Assembly: GCA_965208325.1 (NCBI GenBank)
Contig: OZ242326.1
Span: 4,512,001 to 4,576,000, forward strand
Source of the DNA: Candidatus Poribacteria bacterium
GTDB lineage: Bacteria; Poribacteria; WGA-4E; PCPOR2b
Length of the DNA stretch: 64,000 bases
Reading direction: 5' to 3'
Shown one piece after another: positions 26,501 through 43,192 of the stretch (position 1 is its first letter; every line of letters begins with the position of its first letter). The notes beneath the pieces were generated by a model. That model did no database searches and was not told the DNA's origin. It saw only the letters and a list, made by a program, of their open reading frames with translations. Both the position numbers and the translations under genes were made by a program.

Positions 26501-26882
26501 TCTTGCCGTGCAGCAAATTTGATTCACGGATTGACCGCACCTCTACTTTCTCCCCAATCCAGTCAGCGCATTCTCGCGCCACCTGCTTGAGTTGAAGTTG
26601 GTTCTTCAACTGCAAACCGTCAGCGTTTATGATGAATGATTTCTTCTCTGTTTTATCGGGATCAAGCCCTTGGATGAACCGGGGTTCGCCAAATAGGAAG
26701 CGAAGGTCATTGATTTGATACAGGGATGATTTCAGCGCCTCGAACGCGTAAATTGTAAAGTAAGCGGATACAACCGAGAGTGACGTACCGTTTTCGATTT
26801 GCGACTTCAGAAACTCACCGACCGTACCGCGCTCGCGGTTATCGCGGATGCCGGACGGGAATAGTGTCGTGTTTTCTGGCAT
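23550..26882 (-). CDS. PLD-nuclease / SNF2-type helicase fusion (restriction-associated)
   Basis: LHGKMY and GSSNFT (PLD); ADSVGLGKT, IDESHNFRN, LLSATPVNN, SEGQNLQD, QRFGRIDRIG (SF2 motifs). Confidence 0.92.
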   Translation of the reverse strand: MPENTTLFPSGIRDNRERGTVGEFLKSQIENGTSLSVVSAYFTIYAFEALKSSLYQINDLRFLFGEPRFIQGLDPDKTEKKSFIINADGLQLKNQLQLKQVARECADWIGEKVEVRSIRESNLLHGKMYHIAKNGVENAILGSSNFTVRGLGLSQTAGNIELNLTVEDRRDLNDLKLWFDELWYDKSRVKDVKEEVLAYLNQLYENHDPEFIYYKTLFHLFEKYLGDQEGWGLLDEPPQLVDTQIWKVLYEFQKDGVKGAINKILTHNGCIIADSVGLGKTFEALAVIKYFELRNENVLVLCPKKLRENWTLYQAHTGNKFNPFPNDRFGYTVLSHTDLSRSSGMSDSINLASFNWGNYGLVVIDESHNFRNNTRGKRDEDGVPISRSRYERLMEDIVKSGVKTKMLLLSATPVNNDLRDLRNQLYFLTEERDDAFEESLGVVNLRETISTAQTAFNRWAKQDGARSSQGLLEILSTSFFRLLDGLTIARSRKQIEKYYPSSLKELGGFPERSKPEPVYPDIDTRGQFMSYDELNAEISQYQLSLYNPTKYLRPEHHSEYDLGHINHFTQSDREYYLIGMMKVNFLKRLESSVHSFKITLERTLEKIDDLEGRIRRFQEYRGENPDADLGDVDIDALEDEELQAAMQVGKSLKFKMAHLDVERWLEDLQHDRDQLEGPYRSAKKINMHRDAKLAKLKELIQAKVNNPTTTKENKPNRKVLVFTAFADTADYLYGALHEWAAAKLNIHTGMVTGAGANKTTLGRTNFIDILTNFSPIAKNRAGIASMPQNEEIDLLIGTDCISEGQNLQDCDYLINYDIHWNPVRIIQRFGRIDRIGSVNNSVHLVNFWPTEDLNRYINLKNRVEARMALVDVTATQGDNLLDPDALHDVIEGDLRYRDQQLLRLKDEVLDLEEFTESVALNEFTLDDFRMELIKYIESNRKKLEESPFGLYAVVPPPPNDPIIQPGVIFCLRQKTESDENRNLNPTQPYFLVYVRNDGVVRFSFAYPKQILEMYRQLCSGNNRPYDELCALFDERTANGADMSQYDDLLDKTVKSIAQTYRKRAFDNLTSGRGGALPLVTDQVSGATDFELVTWLVIENLETEQNHHSPP

Positions 26883-27009
26883 ATTCTTCTCCTATGGGGC
26901 GGAGTTGGCTATTTTGGAGTTTGGGTTTTTAAGTTGTCTGAATCGCGGATTGCCACTAGGTAAATGATGGATGCAGATACAATGTGCCGAATCCATATCA
27001 TATGCTTAA

Positions 27010-27285
27010 TTACGGACGATATGCTCTGCCACGCCGATAAATGCCTTTGATGGTGCACACCCGACGTTGCGTGTCCAAACTGTAGACAATTCGGTAACTT
27101 CCGACACGGTATCTGTACTGTCCAGCATATTCTCCCTTCAACTTGACAATTTTCCGCCCAAAGAACGGATTTTGGGCTATCCGCTCAATCGCTTCATTTA
27201 CTCGCCGCGTCATGTTGGCATCAAGTACGTTGTAGTGTGTCACTGCCTCATCAGTGAGTCGTACATCAAACGTCGCGTCTAACAT
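27010..27285 (-). CDS. RelE/ParE family toxin
   Basis: 91 aa; KLKG....YRYRVGSYRIVY.......I..R..AY; overlaps the upstream small acidic gene. Confidence 0.88.
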   Translation of the reverse strand: MLDATFDVRLTDEAVTHYNVLDANMTRRVNEAIERIAQNPFFGRKIVKLKGEYAGQYRYRVGSYRIVYSLDTQRRVCTIKGIYRRGRAYRP

Positions 27286-27496
27286 CGGTCCAACGCTTTA
27301 GCCTCCCTGCCTGCACATCCGTTTCTGAACGTTCTAAACTTTTAACGATTTCCGGATTACTCGCCAATTCGTGGGTCGCTTCCCACGCTTCTTTATCTTG
27401 CAGATAGCGCAGATAGTCAATAACCGTCTTCAGCTTTTCTGTCGAAAGCTGCTCTATTAGCTCAACTGCTTGTTGTTGCAAAGATGCTTTTCGCAT
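27266..27496 (-). CDS. Cognate antitoxin
   Basis: Small gene directly upstream of the toxin; WEATHEL.SNP....SL..S..D...GR...W is typical of RelE-partner antitoxin C-termini. Confidence 0.75.
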   Translation of the reverse strand: MRKASLQQQAVELIEQLSTEKLKTVIDYLRYLQDKEAWEATHELASNPEIVKSLERSETDVQAGRLKRWTDVRRDV

Positions 27497-27998
27497 AGTG
27501 CCCCCTTTCAATCAAGATTTCATATCAGTATATAAAAAAATAAGAAATGAAGCTTTGATCAGCCCTCCGTATTTAGCCACCCTCTGTCTGAATCGCGGAT
27601 TTCCGCGGATTGAGGGATTACACGGATTGAGAAGTCCACGCTGTCGGCCCTGCTAGCGGCGGGAGGGCCTCCCCCGTTAAGATTACCGATGAATCGGGAC
27701 GACCCTCTCGATTGCATCGGGGCACTTGTGCTTGCCCAAAGACAATGATGTTCAACACCAATCATGAGCAAGGCAACCACAAGTCTCTTTATCCCGATTT
27801 ATCGCGGGGTTACCCCGATAAAAATTAACCATTTGCAGAAATCGTTCACATCGCTTTGCACCCACTTTTTTACATGCGGCGAAATATGGTGAATCTTAGA
27901 ATTAATGAGACGCTCCAAAACGGTGCCGTTCGGAAACCGCGCCTACCGCGGCGGACGATAGTGTATATTCATTTGGTGGTAACCATAATTCAAGGTAC

Positions 27999-28766
27999 TC
28001 ATGTGACATCAAGGACCAGTTTACGCCCATTTAACGGCTGTACCGGCCGGTTGTTGCCGTGGATAATCGCTTTAAATGCCGCAATTTGCGATACAGACAT
28101 CTCAGCGGGCGTTGTGAGCACAATCCATTTGACTCCCTCTAAACAGGGCGGGGTGGTCAGTGAACCGTCGTATCGGTAGGTGCTGGGAAAAGCCGCTCCG
28201 GCTTGATCACGCATCTGTCCATTGGGCGACAGCATCAAATCAAGATCTAGTACGACATTCTCAATGCGCCGCGTTTCGAGCGGGGCGGCCGGTAAATCGG
28301 CCCAGATTGGATCAAATGCAGGGTGGTGACGACCACTCTCGATTAACAAACCCACGACTGCTAATTCGCCCGCTTCACTTTGGTGAACGAGGTGCATTTC
28401 CATATCAAACGGTTTACCGGCTACCGTGTGTTCGCTAGGAGCATGGAAATGGAATTGGAGCAGTTGATAGTCGGTGCCATCGATCTGGATTCGGCTGTCT
28501 TCAGGATACGCCACTTCAATCGTGTGTCCATTATGGTGGATGTCCACACCCGTTGCAGGCTGGTATTCATAGGAGAAAACCGGGAGTTGGGTTTGCACCG
28601 GGTTCACAATGTCGATCGGTGATTGGTGCGTCCCCTCGCCGCAAAGGACATATTCCTGATTAAGCTGCCCCCAAACATCCGGCCCATTCTCTGCTGCATA
28701 ACCCCACTCCGCCTTGTGAGTATGGGCGGGAAATTTTTTTGTCCTACCACAACCTGTTATACACAT
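27999..28766 (-). CDS. cah: Alpha-class carbonic anhydrase
   Basis: WGY...GP..W, QSPIDI, NGHTI, QFHFH.PSEH, EMHLVH, Y.GSLTTPPC.EGV.W, NNRPVQPLNGR. Confidence 0.95.
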   Translation of the reverse strand: MCITGCGRTKKFPAHTHKAEWGYAAENGPDVWGQLNQEYVLCGEGTHQSPIDIVNPVQTQLPVFSYEYQPATGVDIHHNGHTIEVAYPEDSRIQIDGTDYQLLQFHFHAPSEHTVAGKPFDMEMHLVHQSEAGELAVVGLLIESGRHHPAFDPIWADLPAAPLETRRIENVVLDLDLMLSPNGQMRDQAGAAFPSTYRYDGSLTTPPCLEGVKWIVLTTPAEMSVSQIAAFKAIIHGNNRPVQPLNGRKLVLDVT

Positions 28767-28922
28767 AATAAATCAGATAACGATGGTAAATCTCTTTGCA
28801 ATACAAGGACTCTGGAAATCAAGCGCTGCCAGTAGTAAATAGACTTGGAATTGCGTCATCATCAATCACTTCGGGTTTTTTTATCGGCAACGTTCAGAAT
28901 TTGTTTGAGAGAAGATACGGAG

Positions 28923-29004
28923 GAAAACGGGAAAACGGGAAAACGGGAAAACGAGAAAACGTGAAACGGAAAACGAGAAAACGAGAAAACGAATAACGAG
29001 TAAC
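28923..29004. repeat. Degenerate 7-8 bp tandem repeat (gaaaacgg/gaaaacga), about 10 copies
   Basis: Directly visible in the sequence. Confidence 0.85.
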
Positions 29005-29153
29005 TCACAAAGATTTTGTTTGTCTGAATCACGGATTGGCGCGGATTTTACGGATTGAACAGATAGAAGAAATTCACAATGTTTGGGTTCGTATGGCAAA
29101 AATGGGTGTCATGTTTTCATGGTCAATGAGTCACAGTGGCCTGTCGTTTGCCA

Positions 29154-30625
29154 CTACTGCGGCGGCGTCAGCATGGCGGCGATGTCTGCAGGTAGTTTTA
29201 CGCCATTGCATTCCTCGAAGTCTGAGACGCTTTCGCAGAAGAAATGAAATGCGGTGATAATATCCATCCCCATGTCCTTGGCTTTTGTTAGGTCTGCCCT
29301 TGCTTTTTTCCATTCGCCTAGGTGTAACTGCGCTACTCCGCGTCCGGCATAAGGCTCAGCAAGGTCAGGTTTAAGTTCTATTGCTCTGTTGTAATCTTCA
29401 AGCGCAACGTCAATTCTGCCTCTTTTGGTGTAAGCATTACCACGATTGTTATAAGCCTCAACGAGATCACGTTTCAGTTCTATCGCCTTGGTATAACCTA
29501 CGATAGCACGGTCAAAATTGCCTTTTTTGATGTAGGCAATCCCACGGTTGTAATGCGCTTCGACAAAATCGGGCTTCAACTCTATCGCCTTGTTATAGTC
29601 TGCGATAGCGCGCTCCGCGTCGCCTTTTTCGCGATAAACGGCACCACGATTGCTATAAGGCTCAGCGTAGCTAGGATCCAGCTCAATCGCCCTATTACAG
29701 TCTTCAATCGCACGGTCATACTCGCCTAGGATGCGGTAAACCGAACCACGATTGTTGTAAGCGAAGACATCATCTGGTTTCAGTTTTATTGCCATGCTAA
29801 AATCTTGAATTGCAAGATCGTATTCACCTTTATCAGCATAAGCAATGCCGCGATTATTATAGGCGATGACAAATTTGGGCTTCAATTCTATTGCTTTGCT
29901 ATAGTGTGCAATTGCATTATCGTAATGCTCAAGATTCGCTTGTGAGTTCATTCTTCGGGTCTCCTGTTGGTTGCTGGGTTGAACCGACATAAAATTCAAT
30001 ACAGGCAATCTGGTGCAAGTCCTGTTTTCTAATGAACCCATGGAGGTCATTGTAAATGGTTTCTGTAGATATACCGTGATGTTTGTCCAAGTAGCTTAAT
30101 ATCGGTTGTTTGAGGTGTGCCGGAATGACGATTACTTCGTCCGGTTCAATAAATCCTGCGAGTGGTCGAACAAATATGCTCTTCTGGGCTATGATGCGAT
30201 TTCGTGGGTTCTGAGGTTTTCTCTTAACTCGATTCTCGTCCTGTGATTCCTCTCCCATAAGGATAACTCTGCCTGCTTTGTCAAAGAAGCGATCGCAAGC
30301 GAAGAATAGGGCTATGTGATTGTCGGTCGTAAAATCTATGAGATTGGTGTGCCCTCCATAGTGTTGAAGTTCTGCCCAGATTTCAATCTCCTCTTGTTCG
30401 GGGGTATAGTTTTTTGCCGAGTCCAGTATTAGTCCTTCGATCGCTTGTATATCGAAATCCTCGGTTCGCATTTTTTTCTTGCACTCACGCCAAAGACTTG
30501 ACGAAACTTTTCTATAGCGCCTCGGTTCACCGCGGTAGATATAGTTGCCTCTGGCTGTTTTTTCTGCTAACTCACGAAGGATTTCCAAAACAGCGTTTAA
30601 GCTATCTTGCGGATTGGTTTTCCAT
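29154..30625 (-). pseudogene. FRG-TPR fusion gene disrupted by apparent frameshifts (track ORFs 29929-30702 and 29154-30050)
   Basis: FRG part (YIYRGE, LQHYGG.TNLIDFT, NRIIAQKSIF, IYNDLHGFI) and TPR part are colinear with intact 37028-38752 but in different frames. Confidence 0.8.
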
Positions 30626-30706
30626 GCTGAAGATTTTTTCCCGAAAACGGATATTTCTTCATTGTCTGAATGGCTAATTGGCGCGGATTTGACGGATGAC
30701 ACAGAT

Positions 30707-30824
30707 TATAGTCATTTAGGTTCACATTTACACACAGAGTAATGAACTGATTTACAATCGAGGCTAGGAAGCCTCTCCCACAAACCAATGAGTAAATGTA
30801 TAATTTTTAGTCGAAATGACTATA
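30707..30824. mobile_element. MITE-like element, second copy
   Basis: TATAGTCATTT...AAATGACTATA termini; interior matches 20469-20585. Confidence 0.7.
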
Positions 30825-30908
30825 AAACAACACCGTAACATTTGGGTTCGTTTCGCGATATTGAGTGTCATGTTTTCATCGTAATTAGTCACAGTGGTCT
30901 GTCGTTTG

Positions 30909-31739
30909 TCACTCCTGCGGCGGTGTCAGCATGGCGGTGATGTCTGGCGGTAGCTTCACCTTATGTTTCTGCTCGAAGTCCGGGACGCTTTCGTAGTCGT
31001 TATGGAACGCGGCAATAACTATTAATCCCAAGTTCTCAGCGGTAATCAGGTCTGCTTTGGCTTTTTCCCATTCCGCCAGGATTAACCATGCTTCACCACG
31101 ATTGTAATAGGCATCGGCAAAATCGAGTTTGATTTGTACGGCTTTCGAATAATTTGCGATGGCACGCCCAACCTTCCTCTTTTTGACATAGGCTACGCCG
31201 CGGTTGCTATAGGCTTCGGTTAACTTGGTATCTAGTTCTAATGCCTTGTTAAAATCTACGATTGCGCGGTCATACTCTCCTTTTCTGAGGAAGGCTGTCC
31301 CCCGATTGTTATAAGGTTCAGCATAATCTGAATTCAACGCCAGTGCCTTGTTAAAGTCTTCAATGGCTCGGTCAAAATCTTTTTTGTTGCGGTAAGCGCT
31401 GCCGCGGTTGTTATAGGCTTGAGCGAACTCCGGTTTTAGCTGAATCGCCTTATTATAGTCTTCGATAGCCCGGTCAAACTTGCCCATCTCGTCCCGAACA
31501 ACGCCGCGGTTGTTGTAGGCTATAGCAAAATTAGGATTAATCTCTATTGCTTTGGTAAAGTGTTCAATGGCAAGTTTACAATCGCCTGCGTTGCGACAGT
31601 CAAGGCCGAGATTGTTTAAAATTGCGGCTTCGTGCCGCTTTTGACGTGCTTCCGGCCCACGAATTTCGCCTAGATCTGACGCGTATTCCTTCATGTACGT
31701 TTGATAATCAAATTCCACTTCTTCTTCTGTCGTATTCAT
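30909..31739 (-). CDS. TPR protein (about 6 repeats) with a short charged N-terminal leader and the shared C-terminal cap
   Basis: AYNNRG...AI.D.NKA units; ATG at 31739 after AAAGGAG. Confidence 0.9.
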   Translation of the reverse strand: MNTTEEEVEFDYQTYMKEYASDLGEIRGPEARQKRHEAAILNNLGLDCRNAGDCKLAIEHFTKAIEINPNFAIAYNNRGVVRDEMGKFDRAIEDYNKAIQLKPEFAQAYNNRGSAYRNKKDFDRAIEDFNKALALNSDYAEPYNNRGTAFLRKGEYDRAIVDFNKALELDTKLTEAYSNRGVAYVKKRKVGRAIANYSKAVQIKLDFADAYYNRGEAWLILAEWEKAKADLITAENLGLIVIAAFHNDYESVPDFEQKHKVKLPPDITAMLTPPQE

Positions 31740-32213
31740 TGAGTAATCTCCTTTCTGCATTAAATGAAGTGATTACATCATAAAACAAGCCACTGTGCTT
31801 CCGTAAATTTGTGTGTTTTCTAGGCTGAATCGTGGATTTTGCGGAAGACACGGAACTGTCTGAATCGCGGATTGCCACGGATTTTACGGATTACGCAGAT
31901 TGAAGAAATCCACGATTTTTAGGTTCGTTTCGCAAAGCTCGGTGTTGCAATTTCATTGTTGATATTCCAATAGAGATACATAACTGTCAGACACATCTCC
32001 GAAGTCGAAATTTGACAAAACTTGACAAAATTTGACAGATTTTATTTTTTTCCTCAGCAATGCTATCATCCATCGCCATTGAGCGTAATTGTCTGAATCG
32101 CGGATTGGCGCGGATTTAGCGGATAACACAGATAGAAGAAATTCACACTGTTTGGGTTGGTTTGGATTCGTTTCGCAGAATATGGGTTTTTCGGTGTAGA
32201 CCAGCCGGCCAAC

Positions 32214-33638
32214 TTATGAATTTCCCGATAATTTGGTTTTAAGTTTTTCCACGGCATCTATCGCATCGGAAATTTCCTTTTTGACCAAAGGGACAATGTG
32301 GGAATGGCTGAGCGGGTTAAGGATTATACTTCGGTACAGTTCGATGTCGTCAATGAGGGTTTGTTCTAAGAAGGGTGTACAATCGCTTGTACTTCCCTGT
32401 TTTATTGGATCCCAGAAATCTTCACTTTGCAATTTTTTCGGATTGTCACTGTATGTTACTCGGAGTTTATTCGTTGCGCAGAATTTCTTGATAGCAGTTT
32501 CAAAGGCGGTGCGCAGGTAGATTGCGCTGGCTTTGTAGTCGTTGTCGTCGAAATAGTCTTTCGCTTTCTCAAGATACGCTTTATCTTCTGCATAGACCGG
32601 AATCTCGTATTCATCGGTTTTCGAGGTATAAAATTCGGCGTATTTCCATTTCGCATCGGGCGTCCGCTGTTTGGCAATCTCATACCACGTTTTATCATAG
32701 GTCGTCAAAAAGATTTGGTGGTCTGGAAAATACTCGTTTAAGATATCAAGCACCGGCAGGCGGTTTGACGTATCCAAGCCGATTAACACATCGTCCAAGG
32801 CGAGAATCTTCAGGCGGCTTTCCGGTTGAATCAGGATTGACGAGAAATAGATTGCGATAGCAATCGCCGATAACCTCGCCTCGTTGAGGAAGCGGTGATG
32901 TTCGGGAATATTTTTATCAAAGAGCTCAATCGTTAACAGAATTTCCTGATTATCAAGCGTTTTGTTGTCACGGTTGTATTGAACGCCCGGAAAATCGAAG
33001 TTAAGGGCAACGTTGTGTCCAAACTTGCCAAGGATTTCAGATGCGATTGGCTGAAGTTCCGCTAATCTATTTGTTAATTCGGTATTGAAGGCTTCTGTCT
33101 GTTTTTCTAAATCTGAAATTTTGCCTGTAGCGTTTCGACGTGGATACGGCGGCTGAATTGCAGCCCAATCGTCGTCAAGGGTCCGATTCGTCAGGGTACT
33201 GACGGTGTTTGCCAAGAGCGTCTCAACCAGCAAATCGAACACATTAACTGTATCACTTTCACGATGGAGGTAGTGCGTGTCCAAAAGCGACTTATAATCG
33301 AGAAAACCCTTTGCCTTCGATGCCTCAATAATCAGTTCGTCGTCCGTTTCTCTAACGCTCTCCGACCATTCGTAGGTCTCCTGTTTTGACCAGCGATCAG
33401 CGCGGAGACACAGTTTTATATAGCCCGCATCCGTAGTAAAGATATTTTGATCGTTTTCAAATCTATGCGACGGATCATCGCCGGATTCCAAGAACAGTTT
33501 TAACGCAAAATACAGGGACGATTTTCCGCTCCCATTTTCACCGTAAACCAGCAAGTTCTTTCCTTTGTTGTGTAGGTTAATTCGGTATGTTCCGTAAAAG
33601 GCTTTGAAATTTTTGATTTCAATTTCGGTAATTCTCAC
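32214..33638 (-). CDS. ABC/SMC-like ATPase with a C-terminal HEPN-like domain (RloC/PrrC-like architecture)
   Basis: GENGSGKSS, FLNEARLS, ILALDDVLIGLD; C-terminal ASAIYLRTAFE...YRSIILNPLSH. Confidence 0.8.
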   Translation of the reverse strand: MRITEIEIKNFKAFYGTYRINLHNKGKNLLVYGENGSGKSSLYFALKLFLESGDDPSHRFENDQNIFTTDAGYIKLCLRADRWSKQETYEWSESVRETDDELIIEASKAKGFLDYKSLLDTHYLHRESDTVNVFDLLVETLLANTVSTLTNRTLDDDWAAIQPPYPRRNATGKISDLEKQTEAFNTELTNRLAELQPIASEILGKFGHNVALNFDFPGVQYNRDNKTLDNQEILLTIELFDKNIPEHHRFLNEARLSAIAIAIYFSSILIQPESRLKILALDDVLIGLDTSNRLPVLDILNEYFPDHQIFLTTYDKTWYEIAKQRTPDAKWKYAEFYTSKTDEYEIPVYAEDKAYLEKAKDYFDDNDYKASAIYLRTAFETAIKKFCATNKLRVTYSDNPKKLQSEDFWDPIKQGSTSDCTPFLEQTLIDDIELYRSIILNPLSHSHIVPLVKKEISDAIDAVEKLKTKLSGNS

Positions 33639-36600
33639 GCCTTATCCTCAATTATACGGATCGGTTCTACACTATCCAGAAAGAAAAGGTTGATCCGGAT
33701 CTGATGTGTTCTTTCATACAATCGCTCGAAGATTTCCTGTAACGATACCATTTTATCACCTCGAATTTCTTCAATCTCCGGCAACCCTTCGTCTAACAAT
33801 GGTTTGAAGAACTGTTTATCCCCGTGATGCAGTTCTTCACTCAGATAGGATTCATAAACCAGTCCGTCAACGATTCGTTCAAAATAGCCGAGCATTATGA
33901 AGTCGCGGGCGTGTGCCAAATCTTTGCCGCTCGTCGTCGGCTGTCCCTGAAGGTAAATGAGGTAATCGACAATTTTACCAATCAGTGATTTCTGCGTTGG
34001 TGTAAGATCGGGAACAGGGATTTCCTGCATATATCGGCTGCGCGCCCGAAGATAATCGCCAGTTAATTGATCTGACACTTGCGAATAGAACCACTCCACA
34101 ACACGGGAATTGAGGAGACCGCACAACCACGTCTCCTCAGTCGGGATAAGGTAGCATGTATCCCCGCAGAAAAGACCTTCCGTATCGACGGCGAAGGATT
34201 GACGGTCGTAGCTGTTTGGGCAAACCAACTTCGTTTGCGTAAAGCGTTCGGCGTCGCTTTTGGCGGCGGGTAATTCATACCATTTCTGTTTACCCGTTCT
34301 TTTGCTCAAGGGGGCTCTATATTTTTCCAAGTGTTTTCGGATGGCGGGATAACGGTCTATCTCTATGCGACGATAGGCAAAAATCAACCATGTATCCGGT
34401 TTTGCTACCCTCCAACGCCTGATATCCCGTCCGTGCAAAAACGGCTTCAAAACTTCAGTGGATGCAGGGTGCTCCGCAATGAGTCGATCTCGCGTCGCGC
34501 TATCTACGACAAAGGCTCCGCTGCTACCGGTCTTGATTCCGAAAGTAGGACGCGATTGGACGTATTGAGACAAAGGTGTGCCCGCGTTGCGTAGTTTCGC
34601 TAGGAGATTCAACACATCGGACGATTCAAGGGGCGTACCTTCGAAACTCGAGAATTTTTCCGTCTTTGGGAATCGACTCCGCCGCGGTTGCGACAGCATG
34701 TCAGCGATGTCCATCGGCAGATTCACACGATGTCTCTTCTCGAAGGCCTCAACGCTTTTGTAGTCGTTTTGGAATCCGGCGATGATATCCACACCGTTGT
34801 CTTTAGCAGTGTTCAAATCCTTGCGGGCATTTTCCCATTCTTTCAACCGTAACCACGCTTCACCGCGATTATAATAGGCGGCGACAAAAACCGGCTCCAA
34901 GTTTATCGCTTTGTTATAATTTTCAATGGCACGGTCAATCTCGCCTTTGCTATAGTAGGCTACTCCGCGATTGTTATAAACAATGGAAAGCCGCGGATTG
35001 AGTTCTATTACTTTGTTAAAGTCAACAATGGCACGGTCATGTTTGCCAATGGTGATATAGGCATTGCCCCGACCATTATAGGCTTCGACAAGATTCGGTT
35101 CGAGCTGTATCGCCTTGTCAAAGTCGGCGATGGCACGGACATAATCACCTTTGTTGCGGTATGCGGCACCGCGATTGCTATAAGGCTCGGCGTAATCGGG
35201 TTTGAGTTCTATCGCACGGTTACAGTCTACGATGGCAAGGTCAAAATCCCCCTTTCCCCGATAGACAGCACCGCGATTGTTGTAAGCTATGGCATAATCG
35301 GTTTTGAGTGCTATAGCCTGGTTAAAGTCTTTAAGGGCAAGGTTTACCTGATCTTTTTTGCCGTATGTGATACCACGACTGTTGTATGCCTCGGCAAAAT
35401 CTGGTTTCAGTTGTATTGCCACGTTAAAGTCTTCAACAGCACGGTTAAAATCACCCTGTTCGTCGTAGGCAATACCGCGATCGCTATATGCTATGGCAAA
35501 ATCGGGATTCAGCTCTATCGCTTTATTGAAGTCGTTGAGAGCAAATTGAACATTACCTTTGTTCTTAAAAGTAACGCCGCGATTGTAGTAGGCGTTCGCA
35601 TAACCGGGGTTGAGTTGAATTGCTTTATCAAAGTCTTTGATGGCACAATCGAAATCCTCTTTGTCATGGTAAGCCCCCCCACGATTATTATATAGCTCGG
35701 CGAGGTTTGGTTTCAATTGTATTGCCTTGTTAAAGTCTGTAATAGCACGATCATATTCCCCTTTTGCTTTATGAACATTACCACGACTATTGTAGGCGAT
35801 GGTACAATTAGGATTGAGTTCTATCGCCCTGTTAAAATCCTCAATAGCGTGGTCAATCGCACCTTTTTCATGAAAAGCATTTCCGCGATTGACATATTGA
35901 TCGGGAAACTTTGGACTCATTTTTATCGCTGTATCAAAATCTACGATAGCCCGGTCAAACTCGCGTTTCTTTTGGAAAGCAATACCGCGGTTGTTATAGA
36001 CATCAGCATGATTGCGTCCGCGTTGGATTGCCTTGTTAAAATCTGAGATGGCTCGGTTATAATCGCCTTTATTGTCGTAGGCAATGCCACGATTGTAAAA
36101 GGTTTCGGCATAATTGGGATTCACCTCTATTGCTCTGTTAAGGTCTTCGAGACCGCGGTCAAGTTCCCCTTTGTCAACGTAAGCAGCACCACGGTTGCTA
36201 TAGATAACCGCGTCATACGGGTTTATTGGTATCGCCGTGTTATAATCTTTAAAGGCGCGGTCAAAATTACCCAACTTTTGGTAAGCTACGCCGCGATTGT
36301 TGTAGGCATCGGTATCACGTGGATTGAGTTTAATTGCCTGTGAATAGGCTTCTATCGCCTTGTCTATTTCTCCGAACATCATGAAAACGTTGCCTTGTTG
36401 GAATGCCAATTCAGCAAGTAATTCATCGCCAAAAGCGCTGGAAGCTGAATCCGCGTGAGATAGCATTTTGTCGACGACTTTTCGGATACCCGTCACTACA
36501 TTTTGCCAACCTTTGCTCTGAGGCCTCCACTCGTTAATGGGCTTGACTTTGTGCGGCAGAACCTCAAACCGACTGAGTTGATGATGCTCCCAATCACAAG

Positions 36601-36892
36601 CCTCAAGGATGATAGAGATGACTCTTATGTTTGCGCGTAAGACGTCAGCTAATTCTTTATTACAGTTTTTCGACGCGAGACTCGCAGCGGAGGTAAGATA
36701 AAGTAAAATGTCCGATTCGGCAAGATTATCTGAAATATCTTTTTCCCACTCGTCGCCCGGAAGAATTTTGTTATCGTCCCACAACTCTATCTTGCCTTCA
36801 TCCGCCATTACAGCAAGGCGCGTTTGCAATTCGATGTTCTGCTGTAGGTCTTTATGTGAATATGTAATGAATACTTTTAGTGCGTTGTTCAT
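33635..36892 (-). CDS. TIR - 16xTPR - type IIG RM target-recognition (TaqI_C-like) fusion protein
   Basis: TIR: VFITYSHKD, W.D..I.PG.EW, S...LAS..CNKEL. Sixteen TPRs. C-terminal ~325 aa paralogous to the C-terminus of 38886-42605. ATG at 36892; the upstream extension in the track is translated repeat. Confidence 0.9.
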   Translation of the reverse strand: MNNALKVFITYSHKDLQQNIELQTRLAVMADEGKIELWDDNKILPGDEWEKDISDNLAESDILLYLTSAASLASKNCNKELADVLRANIRVISIILEACDWEHHQLSRFEVLPHKVKPINEWRPQSKGWQNVVTGIRKVVDKMLSHADSASSAFGDELLAELAFQQGNVFMMFGEIDKAIEAYSQAIKLNPRDTDAYNNRGVAYQKLGNFDRAFKDYNTAIPINPYDAVIYSNRGAAYVDKGELDRGLEDLNRAIEVNPNYAETFYNRGIAYDNKGDYNRAISDFNKAIQRGRNHADVYNNRGIAFQKKREFDRAIVDFDTAIKMSPKFPDQYVNRGNAFHEKGAIDHAIEDFNRAIELNPNCTIAYNSRGNVHKAKGEYDRAITDFNKAIQLKPNLAELYNNRGGAYHDKEDFDCAIKDFDKAIQLNPGYANAYYNRGVTFKNKGNVQFALNDFNKAIELNPDFAIAYSDRGIAYDEQGDFNRAVEDFNVAIQLKPDFAEAYNSRGITYGKKDQVNLALKDFNQAIALKTDYAIAYNNRGAVYRGKGDFDLAIVDCNRAIELKPDYAEPYSNRGAAYRNKGDYVRAIADFDKAIQLEPNLVEAYNGRGNAYITIGKHDRAIVDFNKVIELNPRLSIVYNNRGVAYYSKGEIDRAIENYNKAINLEPVFVAAYYNRGEAWLRLKEWENARKDLNTAKDNGVDIIAGFQNDYKSVEAFEKRHRVNLPMDIADMLSQPRRSRFPKTEKFSSFEGTPLESSDVLNLLAKLRNAGTPLSQYVQSRPTFGIKTGSSGAFVVDSATRDRLIAEHPASTEVLKPFLHGRDIRRWRVAKPDTWLIFAYRRIEIDRYPAIRKHLEKYRAPLSKRTGKQKWYELPAAKSDAERFTQTKLVCPNSYDRQSFAVDTEGLFCGDTCYLIPTEETWLCGLLNSRVVEWFYSQVSDQLTGDYLRARSRYMQEIPVPDLTPTQKSLIGKIVDYLIYLQGQPTTSGKDLAHARDFIMLGYFERIVDGLVYESYLSEELHHGDKQFFKPLLDEGLPEIEEIRGDKMVSLQEIFERLYERTHQIRINLFFLDSVEPIRIIEDKA

Positions 36893-36902
36893 TTTCTTTT
36901 TT

Positions 36903-36977
36903 CTGTCTGAATCGCGGATTGAGGAAAAACACGGATTGAAGAATCCGCGCAATCCGTTTCATACGTGATTCAGACAG
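36903..36977. repeat. Complete palindromic copy of the CTGTCTGAATCRCGGATT repeat
   Basis: ctgtctgaatcgcg...cgtgattcagacag. Related copies near 26935, 27584, 29020, 30663, 31823/31856, 32089 and 38792-38893. Confidence 0.9.
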
Positions 36978-37027
36978 TATTTTCCTCCTCAATCGCAATT
37001 ACCTCAGAGTCTGATGCCCGGCAAACT

Positions 37028-38752
37028 TTACACTCCCGGTGGCGAAAGCATTACGGCGATATCTTCCGGTAGTTCCACGTTATTCTTCTGCTCAAAATGC
37101 GCCACGCTTTCATAGTCTTTGCGAAACAAAGCGACAATATCCGCTCCCTTCTCTTTGCCAATTGACAGATCTTCTTTTGCGTTTTCAAATTCGCTCTGTT
37201 GTAACCAAAACACACCGCGACTGTAATACGCAGTAGTAAAGTTGAGTTCAATCGCCTTGTCATGATCTTTTATGGCTAAGTCATACCTTCCTGAATCTCC
37301 GTGAACTTTCGCGCGATAGTCGTAAGCTTCGGCAAGGTCCGGTTCAAGCCCTAACGCTCTGTCAAAGTCTTCAATGGCGTGATAATACTTGCCTTTTTTA
37401 GCATAAGCTATTCCTCGATTGTTGAAGGCATTAGCATAGTTGGGTTTCAGGTCTATCGCTTTAGTATAGTTCCCAATAGCACGATGTATCTTGCCTTTAC
37501 AAAGCCAAGCATTGCCACGATTGTTATAGGCCTCTGCATAATTTCCGTTCAGTTTTATCGCCGAATCATATTCTTGAATAGCCCGGCTATAATCACCTGT
37601 CGCGGCAAAAGAAACTCCGCGATTATTGAGGGCATTAGCATTATTAGGGTTAAGGTCTATTGCTTTGGTCAGGTCCTGGATAGCGCGGTCTATCCTGCCA
37701 TTGTGGAAGAACGCCTTGCCACGATTGATATAGGCGTCGGAATGGGATGGTTCAAGTCTTATCACGGAGTCATAGTCCCCTATAGCGGCGTCATAGTTGT
37801 TCTTACGACTATTTTCGCAGCCTCGATTGTAATAGGCATCAATATCTTTAGGATTCAGGTCTATTACTTTGGTATAGTCCTCAATAGCACGGTCAAAATC
37901 GCCTTCATCGCCGTAGGCACGTCCGCGATTGAAATAAGCGTCCGTAAAATCAGGTTTAACTCGGATTGCCTTTGTATAGTGTTCAATGGATTCGCCATAC
38001 TGACCTGAATGCTGACAGGCAACGCCTTTGAAAAACAGAGTGTATGCCCCTTCGTGTATTCCTTGATGGATAATATATCCATGTAGATCGTTGTAGATGG
38101 TTTCTTTGGAGATTCCGTGGTACCTTCGCAGATGCTGTAGGAGCGGATGTTTTAGTGTGGCCGGAATAAACACTATGTCCTTCTCATATGGATCAATAAA
38201 GCCCTTCGGTGGGCGAAGAAATACGCTTTTTTGGGCAATTACGCGGTGTCGTGGATTATTAGGATGTCTAATCATGTTTTTTATCGATTCGGTGTTTTGT
38301 ATGACAACTCGGCCCTCTTCCTGTGGAAATCCGTCGCATGCGAAGAAAAGAGCAATGAAATAGTCGGTTGTGAAGTCTATCAGGTTTGTGGCACCACCGT
38401 AATGTTGGATCTCCGTGAGAAGCTCAAAATTCGCGGCGTCTCTGGTAGATTCTTTGGACACATTCATAACTGCATTGAGATCTGATTGAATGTCCTGTGC
38501 TATATGCCCTAAATGCTTTTTGGCGCCATTCAGCATCTCGTTTTGGATTGCTTCTATATCGCAGTGTTTTGCCTCCTCGCGATACTTACGCCAGAGTGTT
38601 GAGGATACTTTTCCGTAGTAGGGATCGCCTTCATGCCGTTCAGGTTCTCCGCGGAATAAGTACGTACCGTCTACACATTTTTTCTCAATCACGTGGATAA
38701 CGTCCTGAACTGTTCGGAGTTTTTGATTTGCACCGTCGGATTGATTTGACAT
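37028..38752 (-). CDS. FRG domain - TPR (about 9 repeats) fusion protein
   Basis: YLFRGE, IQHYGGATNLIDFT, ALFFAC, RVIAQKSVF, then TPRs and the shared cap. Confidence 0.9.
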   Translation of the reverse strand: MSNQSDGANQKLRTVQDVIHVIEKKCVDGTYLFRGEPERHEGDPYYGKVSSTLWRKYREEAKHCDIEAIQNEMLNGAKKHLGHIAQDIQSDLNAVMNVSKESTRDAANFELLTEIQHYGGATNLIDFTTDYFIALFFACDGFPQEEGRVVIQNTESIKNMIRHPNNPRHRVIAQKSVFLRPPKGFIDPYEKDIVFIPATLKHPLLQHLRRYHGISKETIYNDLHGYIIHQGIHEGAYTLFFKGVACQHSGQYGESIEHYTKAIRVKPDFTDAYFNRGRAYGDEGDFDRAIEDYTKVIDLNPKDIDAYYNRGCENSRKNNYDAAIGDYDSVIRLEPSHSDAYINRGKAFFHNGRIDRAIQDLTKAIDLNPNNANALNNRGVSFAATGDYSRAIQEYDSAIKLNGNYAEAYNNRGNAWLCKGKIHRAIGNYTKAIDLKPNYANAFNNRGIAYAKKGKYYHAIEDFDRALGLEPDLAEAYDYRAKVHGDSGRYDLAIKDHDKAIELNFTTAYYSRGVFWLQQSEFENAKEDLSIGKEKGADIVALFRKDYESVAHFEQKNNVELPEDIAVMLSPPGV

Positions 38753-38885
38753 TTTTTTTTATTCCTCCAGAATTATATATTGTTTGTTGGCATCTGAATC
38801 GCGAATTGCCTACACCTCAAAGGATTTCAACAGATATAATCCGCGCCACGAAGTTGGACTATCTTCAATGTGCGTAATCCGTGAT

Positions 38886-41800
38886 TCAGACAGTATTTTT
38901 CTCCACGACCGCAATTTCTTCATCAGATAAATCGTACAATGAGTATACTATCTGATCAATCTCATTTTCAAGTTCGGATACATCGGCGTCCGGGTCAGCG
39001 CGTTTGGCAGCGAGGATTTGATTGACTATGTTGGTGATGGACGCTTTTTGCGCTGGTTTGATAGAGGGAATAGGAATCTGAGAAACATATTGAGCAATAA
39101 ATCTCACAAAGCCACCCCGAATCTGCGTGCTTGTCTTTGTATAGAACCAAAACACGGTTTTGCTATTGAGCAAACCTAGAAGCCACATTTCCTTAGTCGG
39201 TAGAAGGTACAACGTGTTACCCAAAAAATAACAGTCATCATCGAAGGCAAATTCGGCTCCTTGTGCGATATCAGGGTAGACAATTTTCGTTTTCTCAAAC
39301 TCTTTCCAATAAGCACACGCTCGCAACTCCCAGAAATACTTCCCCTGATCGTACCGCTCAATGAGTCGGTCTCGAAAGGTTTGTAGGCGGGCGTGGATTG
39401 CGGGATACGTATCGGCAAAAATCGCCTCCGCCTCTACGGCAGATTCCTCCGACCACGGATGCGTCCGATTTTCCGACGATTCAATTTTGATGAGGTACTG
39501 CTCGGCGAAATTCACACCCCAGCGTTTCACATCTCGTCCGCGCAATAACGGTTTTAACACTTCAGCCGATGATGGATGATCCGCAATGAGTTGATTCCGC
39601 GTCGCTAGGTCCACAACAAATGCTTCGTTCAAACCTGTTAGGACACCTCGATAAAACCTTCCTTTGACATATTCCCCTAACGGTTTACCCGTGTTTCGGA
39701 GTTTCTTCAGCAGGTCTAACATTATTGGGGTGGTGAGCCGCCAACCGTCAGCGGTCAAGGCGTTTTGCGGCATGGTGAACCCCCGTGTTCGAAACACCGT
39801 CCCGAATTCGTCAATAGAGGACCCCGGCTCCCAATTCAGGGCGCGGAGATGATTCCCTTGAGCGTGGGGTTTGGACGCTGTGATAATACTTGGATAAGCA
39901 ATTGACGTAAAAACGGGGGCATCACCAAAGTCGATGAGTTGAGATACAGTGGATTTACAGGCGAGGAAATCTCGAAGTTTCTTACCGTATGCAGCTCGGA
40001 AATACTTATTGGACGAGATGTAGGTCAGGACTCCATTATCCGGCAGTAATTGAAAACCGCGTTCATAAAAATAGACGTAGAGATCGGCTGTGCCGGTGTA
40101 ACAGTCGTACTGCGTTTTCAACGTCGGCTTGAGATCTTTAATTTTCTCTTGGCGAACATACGGCGGATTGCCAATCACCACATCAAACCCTTCGGCGATA
40201 CCAAACATCCATTCTGGGTCAAACCAATCTGCTTCTTTATTCTGATCGTAGGGCTTCCAACTTGCGATTTTGCTGGCGTCTTGAAAACTGGAATCAAATT
40301 GGTTCTTACGCGCCTTATACTTTTTTCGTTCCTCCTTTAGTAACTGTTGGCGATGTTCAGTTTTCGGAAGTTGTGCGACTTTTCGGTCTATTTCTCGTTT
40401 CTGACGCTCCATCCATGATGCTCTCCGGCTGTCCAGTTCTTCTTGCAACCGTTCGCGACTTTCGTCCTCCAGCTCTTCGAGGTGAAGCTTCTGTCGTCGA
40501 TTATTTGTTAGATAATACTTTTCACGAATTCCCTCTATTTCTTTTATTAATTGCCGTACAGCGTCCTCTTGGAGTAACAATCGGGTTTCGGCTAACTGCA
40601 AGCCAATCAGCGTATTCGCGGCAACGAAGCGAGTTTCTAGATTCGGCAGGGGCTTAATTCCGAAATTGGCAACGGTCTCATCTACGACCTGTTCAATAGC
40701 AAGCGAGACAAAGAATCGGAGTTTGGCGATCTGGCACGCCTCAGGTTGGATGTCGACGCCGAAGATGCTGTTTTGTATCAGATACAACTTCCGTCCAAAG
40801 TCTGAATCGCGGTAACGTTCAAACGTATCACTAATTTCCTTCAGTTCGTCATCGCGCGCCTGCTGGTTTGAGATTTTGAACGCCGCCTGCGCCCGACGCC
40901 CGGCGCGGTCGCGCTGTAACTGTTCCCAAAGCGTGTTATCCGGATCAAGCCGCCGCAGCGCAAGGGTCAATTTGTGCAGCACACCCATCGGAAACGCGCC
41001 GGAACCGACCGCAGGATCCAGTATCTTCAGATTTGAAATCGCCCGTACAAGCCCGTTTATCTCATCGTCATCAAACCATTCGCTCGCATCGTCGCAGACT
41101 TGGGCATAATCCAACAGATAGTGCAATCGTTCATTCCAGAGTTTCACATCATCGTCCGTTGGCGACACTTGTTCTCCCAGCGTTGCAATTAACGCTTCCT
41201 CTACCATGTAGTCTACAATAGGACGCGGGGTGTAGTAGGAACCAGTCTGTTTACGTTTAGTTTCCCCAGTTTCAGGATTGTATGCGGCAAGCAGGTTTTC
41301 GAACACCTTGCCGAGCAGTTCAGGATCCAGCGCAACCTCCTGCTCTATCGGCGTGCTTTCCTCAACGGTAAACTTGTAGTGCGTCAGCAAGGAAATCAGA
41401 CCATCGTCACCAAAGAACAGACGGTTGGGAAGGCTAAGTTTTCTGAAATGCTCATCGGAAAAACAGTCAATGCGGGAACCTCCCGCTCTCATGCCCTTGA
41501 AGTCGTCCAGACAATCGAACAACCCTCCGTTGATGAATGGTGTTTTGCCAAACAACGCTTCAAGCGAATCCGGGTCATTCATCTGATCTTTGTAGCGATA
41601 TACGGAGAAATTTCGATGGTCGGGTTTCCCTTTACTGAACCGACGCTCGTCAATCTCGGTGTTCAACGTGGCAAAGAACAAGTTCTGTAATACCGCACGG
41701 TAGTAGGAATCTCCATTGTCACGATTGTAGTCCTTTAGCAAGAGAGTAACTTCGCGTTCGTCGAATAGTTCCTCCGCAACCAACCCCTTCTCTTTAATAA

Positions 41801-43114: not shown

Positions 43115-43192
43115 AAGGCTTGTGTTCAGTTCTTATTCAACCTCCCATTTTGTTAGGAGTAGAATGGAATTGAGGTTAATTCGGTTGCATAA

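What the first reader, a model, noticed from the sequence alone, without database searches (positions are those of the whole stretch)
29154..38752. Family of four swappable-effector TPR proteins sharing one ~55-aa C-terminal cap
Seen: four genes have different N-termini (FRG, TIR, short charged leader, FRG), different TPR counts (about 9, 16, 6 and 6-7) and the same cap. The caps are EFENAKEDLSIGKEKGADIVALFRKDYESVAHFEQKNNVELPEDIAVML, EWENARKDLNTAKDNGVDIIAGFQNDYKSVEAFEKRHRVNLPMDIADML, EWEKAKADLITAENLGLIVIAAFHNDYESVPDFEQKHKVKLPPDITAML and EWKKARADLTKAKDMGMDIITAFHFFCESVSDFEECNGVKLPADIAAML. FE....V.LP.D resembles the start of SMI1/KNR4 (SUKH) domains. Inference: a modular effector-sensor-cap immune receptor family without an NTPase, diversified in place. 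The cap may autoinhibit or mediate assembly.
Basis: partly seen in the sequence, partly recalled or inferred. Interest (0 to 1): 0.75.

Follow-up and report, generated by a model that had tools for sequence, protein, structure and literature searches.

The report
Capped TPR proteins with NADase-like heads
Four neighbouring genes in a sponge-symbiont-like genome belong to a large family of repeat proteins that share one conserved tail piece, carry enzyme heads of kinds linked to anti-phage defence, and sit beside a restriction enzyme gene.

Summary
The four cap copies are real: 48-60% identical, tblastn E 1e-13 to 1e-19, and there is no fifth copy in the window. Three details of the finding need correcting.

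- Gene 4 is two coupled ORFs, one FRG-only and one TPR-cap. The same split form recurs in 22 pairs in other genomes.
- In gene 2 the cap is internal. A 348-aa TaqI_C-like domain follows it, and an SMC-like ATPase gene overlaps the gene's end by 4 nt.
- The first 14 residues of the "cap" are helix B of the last TPR. Three short helices follow (AF2, pLDDT about 97).

The cap defines a large family: 635 clusters at 50% identity. All 75 genome loci fetched carry Candidatus Poribacteria or unclassified-bacterium MAG titles. Long N-terminal heads are FRG in 48 of 69, TIR in 16 and other in 5. A type IIG restriction gene lies upstream on the same strand in 34 of 75 loci.

The modular, defence-linked reading is supported. 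Three claims are not: "diversified in place", "no NTPase", and SUKH membership. The cap's role was not tested; a structural end-cap and fixed junction is my best inference. This is a new variant of a known kind, of moderate interest.

The parts
38886..42605 (-). Type IIG restriction-modification enzyme (Eco57I-type methylase plus TaqI_C specificity domain), directly upstream of the cap genes
   Evidence: Pfam Eco57I E 1e-42 and TaqI_C E 8e-20. PADLOC REase_MTase_IIG E 2e-115. A homologue lies upstream and co-oriented in 34 of 75 related loci.
37028..38752 (-). Gene 1: FRG head, 8+1 TPRs and cap (cap at 37031-37192), 574 aa
   Evidence: Pfam FRG E 8e-12 and TPR_1 with 8 stretches. PADLOC PDC-S15 E 6e-15. 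Cap located by tblastn.
33635..36952 (-). Gene 2: TIR head, 15+1 TPRs, internal cap (34685-34840) and a TaqI_C-like tail (33635-34684). The likely true start is the ATG at about 36892.
   Evidence: Pfam TIR_2 E 1.3e-12 and TaqI_C E 6e-15 at aa 836-980. PADLOC ThsB1 E 3e-22 and IIG models E 1e-25 over aa 777-996. The tail is 38% identical to the IIG C-terminus. The same fusion occurs in 8 database representatives (56-83% identity) and in 10 genome loci.
32214..33638 (-). SMC/RecF-like ABC ATPase, overlapping the end of gene 2 by 4 nt
   Evidence: Pfam SMC_N E 2e-12 and AAA_15, AAA_23. The best PADLOC hit is weak: mad3 E 1.4e-11. A homologue follows the tail-bearing cap gene in 8 of 10 loci.
30909..31760 (-). 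Gene 3: short acidic leader, 5+1 TPRs and cap (30912-31073), 283 aa, no enzyme head
   Evidence: Pfam finds TPR families only. AF2 model pLDDT 92.7. An orthologue with 88% identity over the last 120 aa is in syntenic L001.
29929..30702 (-). Gene 4a: FRG-only ORF (257 aa as listed; start uncertain)
   Evidence: Pfam FRG E 1.5e-14. PADLOC PDC-S15 E 2e-19. A stand-alone FRG family occurs in 26 of 75 loci, always co-oriented. AF2 pLDDT 84.7.
29154..29951 (-). Gene 4b: TPR-cap ORF (6+1 TPRs; cap 29157-29315), starting at ATG 29951 and overlapping 4a by 23 nt
   Evidence: Sequence read. The same overlap is in L067 9046-9747 / 9725-10624, and 22 coupled FRG-only/TPR-cap pairs were found.
23550..26882 (-). 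PLD (HKD) plus SNF2 helicase, the other boundary of the variable region
   Evidence: Pfam PLDc_2, SNF2-rel_dom and Helicase_C. PADLOC C3a139 'HKD+Snf2' E 1e-126. A homologue occurs in 13 of 75 loci.
27010..27511 (-). ParE-type toxin (27010-27285) and an upstream small antitoxin-like ORF (27266-27511), cargo of the same region
   Evidence: Pfam ParE_toxin E 1e-7. An antitoxin-like sequence follows the cap in frame in representatives P0098 and P0139.
26935..38892 (.). Island-specific intergenic repeat (core TGTCTGAATCGCGGATTG followed by CGCGGATT-like units) at 26935, 27585, 29021, 30663, 31857, 32090, 36904 and, inverted, 38875. Each copy lies upstream of a transcription unit.
   Evidence: 10 matches with up to 3 mismatches against 0.09 expected, all between 26935 and 38892. 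Repeat families D4, D6, D7, D8. Alignment. The same repeats occur at cassette borders of L001.

Best explanation
The four genes belong to a large family, seen so far only in Poribacteria-titled and unclassified MAGs, of cytoplasmic TPR-solenoid proteins. The repeat array ends in a specialised last TPR plus three short helices, which together are the 'cap'. The TPR-cap block is the constant part.

Its partner is a head of a kind reported to use NAD+: FRG, which the literature places in the ADP-ribosyltransferase superfamily, or TIR. The head is either fused in front or encoded as a translationally coupled upstream ORF. In a minority of members, further modules are joined directly behind the cap. 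One such module is a TaqI_C-like DNA-specificity domain that comes with an SMC-like ATPase gene.

The genes sit as exchangeable cassettes directly downstream of a type IIG restriction-modification gene, often with a PLD-SNF2 helicase gene nearby.

Inferred mechanism, not shown: these are abortive-infection-type sensors. The TPR array binds a phage-derived or restriction-status signal, and the head then consumes or transfers from NAD+. The cap seals the hydrophobic end of the solenoid and serves as the fixed junction or docking end of the module.
For: Shown:
- Cap recurrence. 635 cluster representatives at E <= 1e-3 and 404 at E <= 1e-10. 1329 proteins at E <= 1e-5.
- Cap position. Of 190 proteins examined, 155 have a single cap within 15 aa of the C-terminus, 3 end in a cap and also carry internal copies, and 32 have longer tails.
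- Taxonomy. All 75 genome loci are titled Candidatus Poribacteria, uncultured Poribacteria, or unclassified bacterium MAGs.
- Heads. 33 FRG, 2 TIR and 5 none among 40 proteins. 48 FRG, 16 TIR, 1 DUF2971 and 4 none among 69 long N-termini.
- Split form. 22 FRG-only/TPR-cap pairs have Shine-Dalgarno-like sequences and stop/start coupling.
- Fold of the cap. In the AF2 model of gene 3 (pLDDT 92.7), the cap helices are 231-243, 248-255, 259-266 and 272-278, at a block pLDDT of about 97.
- Conservation. The cap is more conserved than the two preceding TPRs. Top-residue frequency is 0.76 (helix B) and 0.68 (extension) against 0.60 and 0.62.
- Context. IIG is present in 34 of 75 loci, upstream of the first cap gene in 34 of 34 and directly adjacent in 21. 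Any defence-type neighbour occurs in 49 of 75. All 130 cap ORFs share the orientation of the match, and 39 of 75 loci hold two to four.
- Cassette turnover. The window and syntenic L001 share flanks at 90-94% identity but carry different cassettes.
- FRG as an effector. PADLOC PDC-S15 E 2e-19. Passages of PMC9503650 call Frg an ART-superfamily domain and a potential NADase anti-viral effector. The PDB fold hits are nearly all ADP-ribosyltransferases.
Against: - No experiment or binding prediction bears on any step of the mechanism.
- The FRG fold matches are weak: best E 0.014, none at E <= 0.001, query TM <= 0.30.
- 26 of 75 loci show no defence-type neighbour within 10 kb. Many neighbours there are metabolic genes such as GFO oxidoreductases, sulfatases and PhyH.
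- The 34 IIG-linked loci may be one inherited syntenic position, not independent associations.
- 27 of 117 tree rows are TPR-cap proteins with no recognisable head and no FRG-only gene directly upstream.
- The cap is only moderately more conserved than the TPRs.
- The cap is kept in proteins with only 1-2 TPRs (for example L011, and the 415-aa group). That hints at a role beyond ending an array.
- TPR proteins of Poribacteria have been read as host-interaction proteins (PMC3909097 passages).
Confidence: 0.55

Rival explanations
1. The cap is an active regulatory or assembly module. It either docks the head of another molecule or pairs with other caps. Under this view the several cap proteins encoded in one locus form hetero-oligomers, and activity depends on that assembly.
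For: - The cap is the best-conserved part of the module.
- It is retained when the array shrinks to 1-2 TPRs.
- 39 of 75 loci encode two to four cap proteins, all co-oriented.
- The split FRG-only/TPR-cap pairs imply that head and TPR-cap meet in trans.
- Conserved acidic positions (E230, E232, D237, E263, D273 in gene 3 numbering) are not part of the usual TPR core pattern. That judgement rests on my recall.
Against: - TPR number ranges from 0 to 31, so a fixed cis contact between head and cap is geometrically unlikely.
- The cap can be internal, followed by other domains or by a whole second module. A free C-terminus is therefore not needed.
- Two unrelated folds (FRG and TIR) would both have to dock on the same cap.
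Confidence: 0.25
2. The cap proteins are accessory or guard components of the neighbouring type IIG / PLD-SNF2 restriction system. The tail-bearing form carries a decoy DNA-specificity domain. Together with the SMC-like ATPase it senses attack on, or failure of, the restriction enzyme and then fires the NADase-like head.
For: - IIG lies upstream and co-oriented in 34 of 75 loci and is directly adjacent in 21.
- The tail is a full TaqI_C-type domain, joined at what corresponds to the methylase/specificity-domain boundary of the IIG enzyme.
- The fusion is kept in frame with TIR, FRG or short heads in 10 loci.
- An ATPase follows in 8 of 10.
Against: - 41 of 75 loci have no IIG gene within 10 kb. 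Sixteen of the 75 loci are shorter than 15 kb, so some flanks are incomplete.
- Most cap proteins lack the tail: 10 of 130 ORFs have it.
- Adjacency is equally explained by an insertion hotspot.
- No interaction was tested.
Confidence: 0.12
3. They are eukaryote-like repeat proteins used by the sponge symbiont to act on its host, with TIR or ART-like heads interfering with host signalling. On this view they are not phage defence.
For: - The family is seen only in sponge-symbiont-type MAG titles.
- TPRs are the most frequent repeat domain in Poribacteria and have been discussed as host-interaction proteins (PMC3909097 passages).
Against: - The genes lie inside restriction, toxin-antitoxin and ATPase neighbourhoods.
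- By eye, the window proteins show no N-terminal signal-like sequence. No predictor was run.
- The FRG region matches a phage-defence candidate family in PADLOC.
Confidence: 0.08

Closest known systems
PADLOC candidate PDC-S15 (FRG-domain proteins), with the FRG/Frg domain as described by the Aravind group
   Same: The heads of gene 1 and gene 4a match PDC-S15 models (E 6e-15 and 2e-19) and Pfam FRG. Passages of PMC9503650 call Frg an ART-superfamily domain and a potential NADase anti-viral effector.
   Different: PDC-S15 is a single-gene candidate. Here FRG is joined, in cis or as a coupled separate ORF, to a TPR array with a family-specific cap and sits beside a type IIG gene. The primary paper (Burroughs and Aravind 2020) could not be read.
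Bacterial TIR-domain defence proteins (Thoeris ThsB-like)
   Same: The TIR head of gene 2 matches ThsB1 (E 3e-22) and Pfam TIR_2.
   Different: No ThsA-type partner was seen among the ORFs scanned. The TIR is fused to 16 TPRs, the cap and a TaqI_C-like domain, and is coupled to an SMC-like ATPase.
STAND/Avs-type immune receptors with repeat sensors
   Same: The layout is effector head followed by a repeat array. Pfam TPR-S gives weak hits of 21.5-33.4 bits; only two of the three scanned proteins exceed its 27.6-bit cutoff, with no domain passing on its own.
   Different: None of the four proteins has a STAND NTPase domain. The only NTPase is a separate SMC-like ABC ATPase next to gene 2.
C-terminal capping ('solvating') helix of natural and designed consensus TPR proteins (recalled knowledge)
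   Same: The gene 3 array superposes on consensus TPR crystal structures at 35-45% identity. It ends in extra helices after the last repeat.
   Different: There are three short helices where the known cases have one. Their sequence is family-specific and more conserved than the repeats. No PDB sequence matches it; the best E is 0.026, at chance level.
SMI1/KNR4 (SUKH-1) domain
   Same: The motif FE..LGV.LP.DIAA.L at the end of the cap resembles the first helix-turn-helix of the profile. Two relatives score 28.2 and 25.5 bits against a cutoff of 25.4.
   Different: Only positions 5-48 or 3-26 of 125 are covered. None of the 4 window caps hit, and 9 of 88 caps hit only below threshold. The extension is about 38 aa and all-helical.
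Restriction-linked guard systems such as PrrC with EcoprrI, or PARIS (recalled knowledge)
   Same: A suicide-type effector is encoded inside or next to a restriction-modification operon. The ATPase has weak N-terminal hits to AriA and similar ABC ATPases.
   Different: No homology to PrrC or AriB was found. The link here rests only on gene order and on the TaqI_C-like tail.

Membership tests
Tetratricopeptide repeat proteins | Tandem 34-residue helix-turn-helix repeats matching TPR profiles | tested here: met
   TPR_1 E 1e-52 to 5e-143 with 5-15 stretches in the four proteins. The AF2 model is a regular helical solenoid. Its best PDB matches are consensus TPR proteins.
FRG domain (PF08867) | Match to the Pfam profile above its gathering score | tested here: met
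   Gene 1 scores 46.3 bits and gene 4a 55.1 bits against a cutoff of 25. 48 of 69 N-termini in related loci also match.
ADP-ribosyltransferase superfamily (for the FRG head) | ART fold with NAD+-binding core | tested here: inconclusive
   The AF2 model of gene 4a (pLDDT 84.7) gives PDB hits that are nearly all ART enzymes. The best E is 0.014, none reach E <= 0.001, and query TM is <= 0.30. Assignment to the superfamily is taken from passages of PMC9503650.
TIR domain NADases | TIR fold plus the catalytic glutamate | tested here: inconclusive
   TIR_2 scores 48.7 bits against a cutoff of 28. A glutamate sits in the motif NCNKEL, which by my recall is the usual position. It was not aligned to a characterised enzyme here.
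Thoeris | ThsB TIR protein together with a ThsA (SIR2 or SLOG) effector | tested here: not met
   ThsB1 model E 3e-22 for gene 2. No SIR2 or SLOG protein is among the ORFs scanned between 16361 and 56057.
STAND / NLR-like receptors | Central NACHT / NB-ARC-type NTPase | tested here: not met
   No such Pfam family occurs in any of the four proteins at E <= 0.01.
SMI1/KNR4 (SUKH) | Full-length match to the ~125-position profile | tested here: not met
   0 of 4 window caps hit at E <= 10. 9 of 88 caps hit with a best E of 0.054. The two relatives above cutoff cover at most 44 of 125 positions.
Type IIG restriction-modification enzymes (for the tail of gene 2) | Methylase catalytic domain plus TaqI_C specificity domain | tested here: not met
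   TaqI_C is present (E 6e-15), but gene 2 has no Eco57I or N6_Mtase match. PADLOC IIG models align only to its aa 777-996.
PADLOC PDC-S15 | Match to the PDC-S15 models; anti-phage activity | tested here: inconclusive
   The models match. Activity is not testable with these tools, and the family is itself only a candidate.

The most novel reading that the evidence does not exclude
The region between the type IIG gene and the PLD-SNF2 helicase gene is a dedicated cassette site. Each transcription unit carries the same island-specific 5' repeat. The head-TPR-cap-TaqI_C protein with its SMC-like ATPase acts as a restriction guard: a decoy specificity domain reports interference with the restriction enzyme and releases an NAD+-directed head. 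The shared cap lets the separately encoded TPR-cap and FRG subunits join the same complex.
Probability: 0.1. Interest if true: 0.8.

Novelty: new variant of a known kind. Interest (0 to 1): 0.5.

Why it matters
TPR proteins are the most abundant repeat proteins of Poribacteria and have mostly been discussed as tools for dealing with the sponge host (PMC3909097 passages).

This family suggests another use for a sizeable subset. At least 635 clusters at 50% identity carry the cap. Those with a recognisable head carry FRG or TIR, and many sit in a restriction-linked variable region. That fits phage defence better than host interaction.

The family also offers natural series that would be useful for working out how repeat sensors control such enzymes. 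The same head occurs fused or split. Array length runs from 1 to 31 repeats. Members exist with and without a DNA-specificity tail and ATPase. FRG itself is a defence-linked domain for which I found no biochemical report in the passages read.

Tried and rejected
Tools that gave no answer:
- Complex prediction for gene 4a with gene 4b was not available, so no binding test of any kind was made.
- Burroughs and Aravind 2020, the primary source for Frg, is not held.

Searches that led nowhere:
- The ESM Atlas search with the cap gave only unnamed short clusters at 0.89-0.91.
- The word-indexed search with the divergent cap of gene 1 found only the window's own protein.
- PDB sequence searches with the cap profile and the FRG profile gave chance-level hits only.
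- The PDB fold search with gene 3 returned generic TPR proteins and nothing about the cap.
- The cap is absent from the phage and plasmid collections.
- No Rfam family occurs in the window.
- NCBIfam TPR_END_plus matches ordinary repeats, not the cap.

Readings considered and rejected:
- Gene 4 as a frameshifted pseudogene. The split form, with the same junction, is conserved.
- The tail of gene 2 as accidental read-through into a gene remnant. The fusion is kept in frame at 56-83% identity in 8 representatives and in 10 loci.
- The caps as recombination sites. No long identical DNA was seen; the repeat finder reports only the 102-nt TPR periodicity within the genes.

Full report
**The observation.** ORF listing and tblastn of each cap against the window confirm four copies of a 52-54 aa segment. 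All are on the minus strand, at 37031-37192, 34685-34840, 30918-31073 and 29160-29315. They are 48-60% identical, with E 1e-13 to 1e-19. Every other hit has E >= 0.6, so there are exactly four.

Pfam confirms FRG plus TPR in 37028-38752, TIR plus TPR in 33635-36952, and TPR only in 30909-31760. TPR_1 counts 8, 15, 5 and 6 repeats. The AF2 model of gene 3 shows one further specialised repeat that runs into the cap.

**Three corrections.**

First, 'gene 4' is two ORFs in different frames. One is an FRG-only ORF (29929-30702). The other is a TPR-cap ORF whose likely ATG at 29951 overlaps the FRG stop by 23 nt. I first took this for a frameshift. However, a stand-alone FRG family occurs in 26 of 75 related loci. 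In 22 cases it is directly followed by a TPR-cap ORF across an ordinary coupled junction. These junctions are of the types AGGAGA..TAAAACATG and ATGA overlap, and L067 has the same -23 overlap. The split form is therefore conserved.

Second, the cap of gene 2 is internal. 348 residues follow it. They match TaqI_C (E 6e-15) and type IIG models. They are 38% identical to the C-terminus of the neighbouring type IIG enzyme (E 9e-56). The same fusion recurs at 56-83% identity in 8 of the 32 tail-bearing database proteins and in 10 of 130 cap ORFs in genomes. Its heads are TIR in 3, FRG in 4 and short in 3. It is thus a maintained architecture. An SMC/RecF-like ATPase gene overlaps gene 2 by 4 nt. 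A homologue follows the tail-bearing gene in 8 of those 10 loci.

Third, the first ~14 residues of the cap are helix B of the last TPR. The unique part is three short helices: 248-255, 259-266 and 272-278 of gene 3, with a block pLDDT of about 97.

**How widespread it is.** A word-indexed search with the gene 3 cap found 40 proteins of 155-496 aa. Of these, 33 have FRG, 2 have TIR and 5 have TPR only, and every one ends with the cap.

A profile of 16 caps (A1) was run against 1.84 billion cluster representatives. It found 635 at E <= 1e-3 and 404 at E <= 1e-10. The word-indexed database gave 1329 at E <= 1e-5. The few names given are 'tetratricopeptide repeat protein [Candidatus Poribacteria bacterium]'.

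Of the 190 proteins in hand, 155 have a single cap within 15 aa of the C-terminus. Three end in a cap and also carry internal copies. Thirty-two have longer tails. Those tails include the TaqI_C-like domain, DUF4268, a Toprim-like stretch, a TIR, and fused antitoxin sequences that look like gene run-ons.

The genome scan returned 187 confirmed stretches. The best 75 loci are all titled Candidatus or uncultured Poribacteria, or unclassified bacterium MAGs. The scan used one peptide pattern, so more divergent caps and other taxa may have been missed. The cap is absent from the phage and plasmid collections.

**Genes and neighbours in the 75 loci.** There are 130 cap ORFs, and all share the orientation of the match. 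The counts per locus are 36 loci with one, 27 with two, 8 with three and 4 with four. TPR number runs from 0 (fragments) to 31.

Of 69 ORFs with 100 or more residues before the first TPR, 48 are FRG, 16 TIR, 1 DUF2971 and 4 unassigned.

I called genes greedily, which gave 1024 ORFs. I clustered the non-TPR ones and annotated representatives of the first 32 clusters. The most frequent neighbour is a type IIG enzyme, present in 34 of 75 loci. It is always upstream of the first cap gene and co-oriented, and it is directly adjacent in 21. The next most frequent are stand-alone FRG (26), PLD-SNF2 helicase (13), a 405-aa TIR protein (11), the SMC-like ATPase (8), AAA_21-DUF4435 (6), and several toxin-antitoxin, methylase, PD-(D/E)XK and Schlafen-AlbA_2 families. 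In all, 49 of 75 loci have at least one of these.

Two cautions apply. Sixteen loci are shorter than 15 kb. No genome-wide background was computed. That a 20-kb window rarely holds a type IIG gene is my general expectation and was not measured. Many of the 34 loci may also be one inherited position.

**The window itself.** From 23.5 to 46.8 kb the genes are:
- a PLD-SNF2 helicase;
- a ParE toxin with its antitoxin;
- an alpha carbonic anhydrase;
- genes 4b, 4a and 3;
- the SMC-like ATPase;
- genes 2 and 1;
- the type IIG enzyme;
- an AAA_21 ATPase;
- a ParA-like ATPase;
- a Schlafen-AlbA_2 protein.

L001 is syntenic. Its flanks are 90-94% identical to the window, but the type IIG gene matches only in patches at 73-78%. 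L001 lacks gene 2, the ATPase, genes 4a/4b and the ParE pair. In their place it carries an 800-aa FRG-TPR14-cap gene, BrnT and PD-(D/E)XK genes. The region between the two restriction-type genes therefore turns over quickly.

**Are the four copies local duplicates?** No. Over the last two TPRs plus cap, each window copy has closer relatives elsewhere:
- gene 3: 88% to L001;
- gene 4b: 70% to L020 and L067;
- gene 2: 59-61% to L004, L066 and L067;
- gene 1: 58% to L029.

The in-window paralogues rank 8th to 115th of 116.

The tree has 117 rows. Seventeen short or weak cap ORFs were left out. It uses 121 columns and a quick search, and 52 of its 114 branches are unresolved. It places the four copies in different lineages. 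The head label needs 41 changes against 61.6 in shuffles (0 of 200 as low). Heads are therefore partly lineage-bound, yet exchanged many times. TIR needs 14 changes for 17 rows.

**What the parts are.** The gene 3 array superposes on designed consensus TPR proteins at 35-45% identity.

The cap has no Pfam or NCBIfam family and no PDB sequence relative. It is somewhat better conserved than the repeats before it. Top-residue frequency is 0.76 and 0.68 in the cap against 0.60 and 0.62 in the repeats.

Two relatives reach 28.2 and 25.5 bits on SMI1_KNR4, over positions 5-48 and 3-26 of 125. Of 88 isolated caps, 9 hit SMI1_KNR4 and all fall below threshold, while 14 hit an unrelated model at similar scores. 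None of the four window caps hit.

The FRG head matches PADLOC PDC-S15. Passages of PMC9503650 describe Frg as an ART-superfamily domain and a potential NADase effector of prokaryotic immunity. The primary paper was not available. An AF2 model of gene 4a (pLDDT 84.7) gives weak PDB matches (best E 0.014). Nearly all of them are ADP-ribosyltransferases. This agrees with that assignment but does not prove it.

**Mechanism.** The following is shown:
- a constant TPR-cap block;
- heads of two reported NAD+-using kinds, in cis or as a coupled separate ORF;
- optional modules joined behind the cap;
- placement as cassettes beside a type IIG gene.

The following is inferred. The array senses a phage or restriction-status signal and releases the head. 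The cap mainly seals the solenoid end and serves as the fixed joint. I give this 0.55.

Three observations favour it: the cap's conservation, its retention with only 1-2 repeats, and the several cap proteins per locus. Two count against a fixed cis contact or a needed free end: the 0-31 range of repeat number, and caps that lie inside proteins.

A restriction-guard role, suggested by the tail and the gene order, gets 0.12. A host-interaction role (PMC3909097 passages) gets 0.08.

**Not done.** No taxonomy was obtained for the database representatives. The closed viral and metagenome contig collections were not searched. No genome-wide background was computed.

Noticed in passing
window 26935-38892 (copies at 26935, 27585, 29021, 30663, 31857, 32090, 36904 on +; 38875 on -; weaker at 38791 and 28082): An island-specific repeat has the core TGTCTGAATCGCGGATTG followed by CGCGGATT-like units. 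It gives 10 matches with up to 3 mismatches against 0.09 expected, and none lies outside the region between the PLD-SNF2 and type IIG genes. On the coding strand, each good copy lies roughly 10-260 nt upstream of a transcription unit: helicase, antitoxin, carbonic anhydrase, and genes 3, 2 and 1. At gene 4a it overlaps the listed GTG start. The same repeats occur at cassette borders of L001. No Rfam family matches. It could be a shared promoter or operator, or a recombination site.
   Followed up: partly
window 27999-28766 (-): A eukaryotic-type alpha carbonic anhydrase gene (Pfam Carb_anhydrase E 8e-40) sits in the middle of the defence-type cassettes. It is conserved at 90% identity at the same place in L001.
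   Followed up: no
window 28914-28997: A run of 8-nt units (GGAAAACG-like) forms a short tandem array between the carbonic anhydrase gene and gene 4b (family D5).
   Followed up: no
L009, L014, L018, L023, L033, L037, L039, L062: A 405-aa protein with an N-terminal TIR domain and an unassigned C-terminal part (Pfam TIR_2 E 7e-19 for the representative) usually lies directly upstream of a cap gene. In six of the eight loci that gene is a short FRG-TPR(2-3)-cap gene of about 415 aa. This looks like a separate conserved two-gene unit.
   Followed up: no
L002, L005, L006, L008, L016, L024: A ~99-aa ORF with no Pfam family (cluster c14) lies between two cap genes in the same order in six loci. In five of them the two are FRG-TPR-cap genes of different FRG lengths; in L006 the upstream one is a 131-aa cap fragment.
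   Followed up: no
L042 8057-10213, L055 7049-11206, L068 8480-11386, L075 7046-11206; proteins P0041, P0042: Some proteins hold two or three caps, each followed by further TPRs or a whole FRG module, as if tandem cap genes had fused.
   Followed up: partly
window 21748-23430 (-): An acyltransferase_3 membrane protein has an inserted ankyrin-repeat block (Pfam Acyl_transf_3 E 4e-37, Ank E 2e-21). This is an unusual combination, and it lies just outside the island.
   Followed up: no
window 42806-42889 and 30725-30808; 23485-23591 and 42926-43142: Further intergenic repeats of 38-84 nt at 82-97% identity link the two outer borders of the island and the spacer upstream of gene 4a (families D10-D13).
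   Followed up: no
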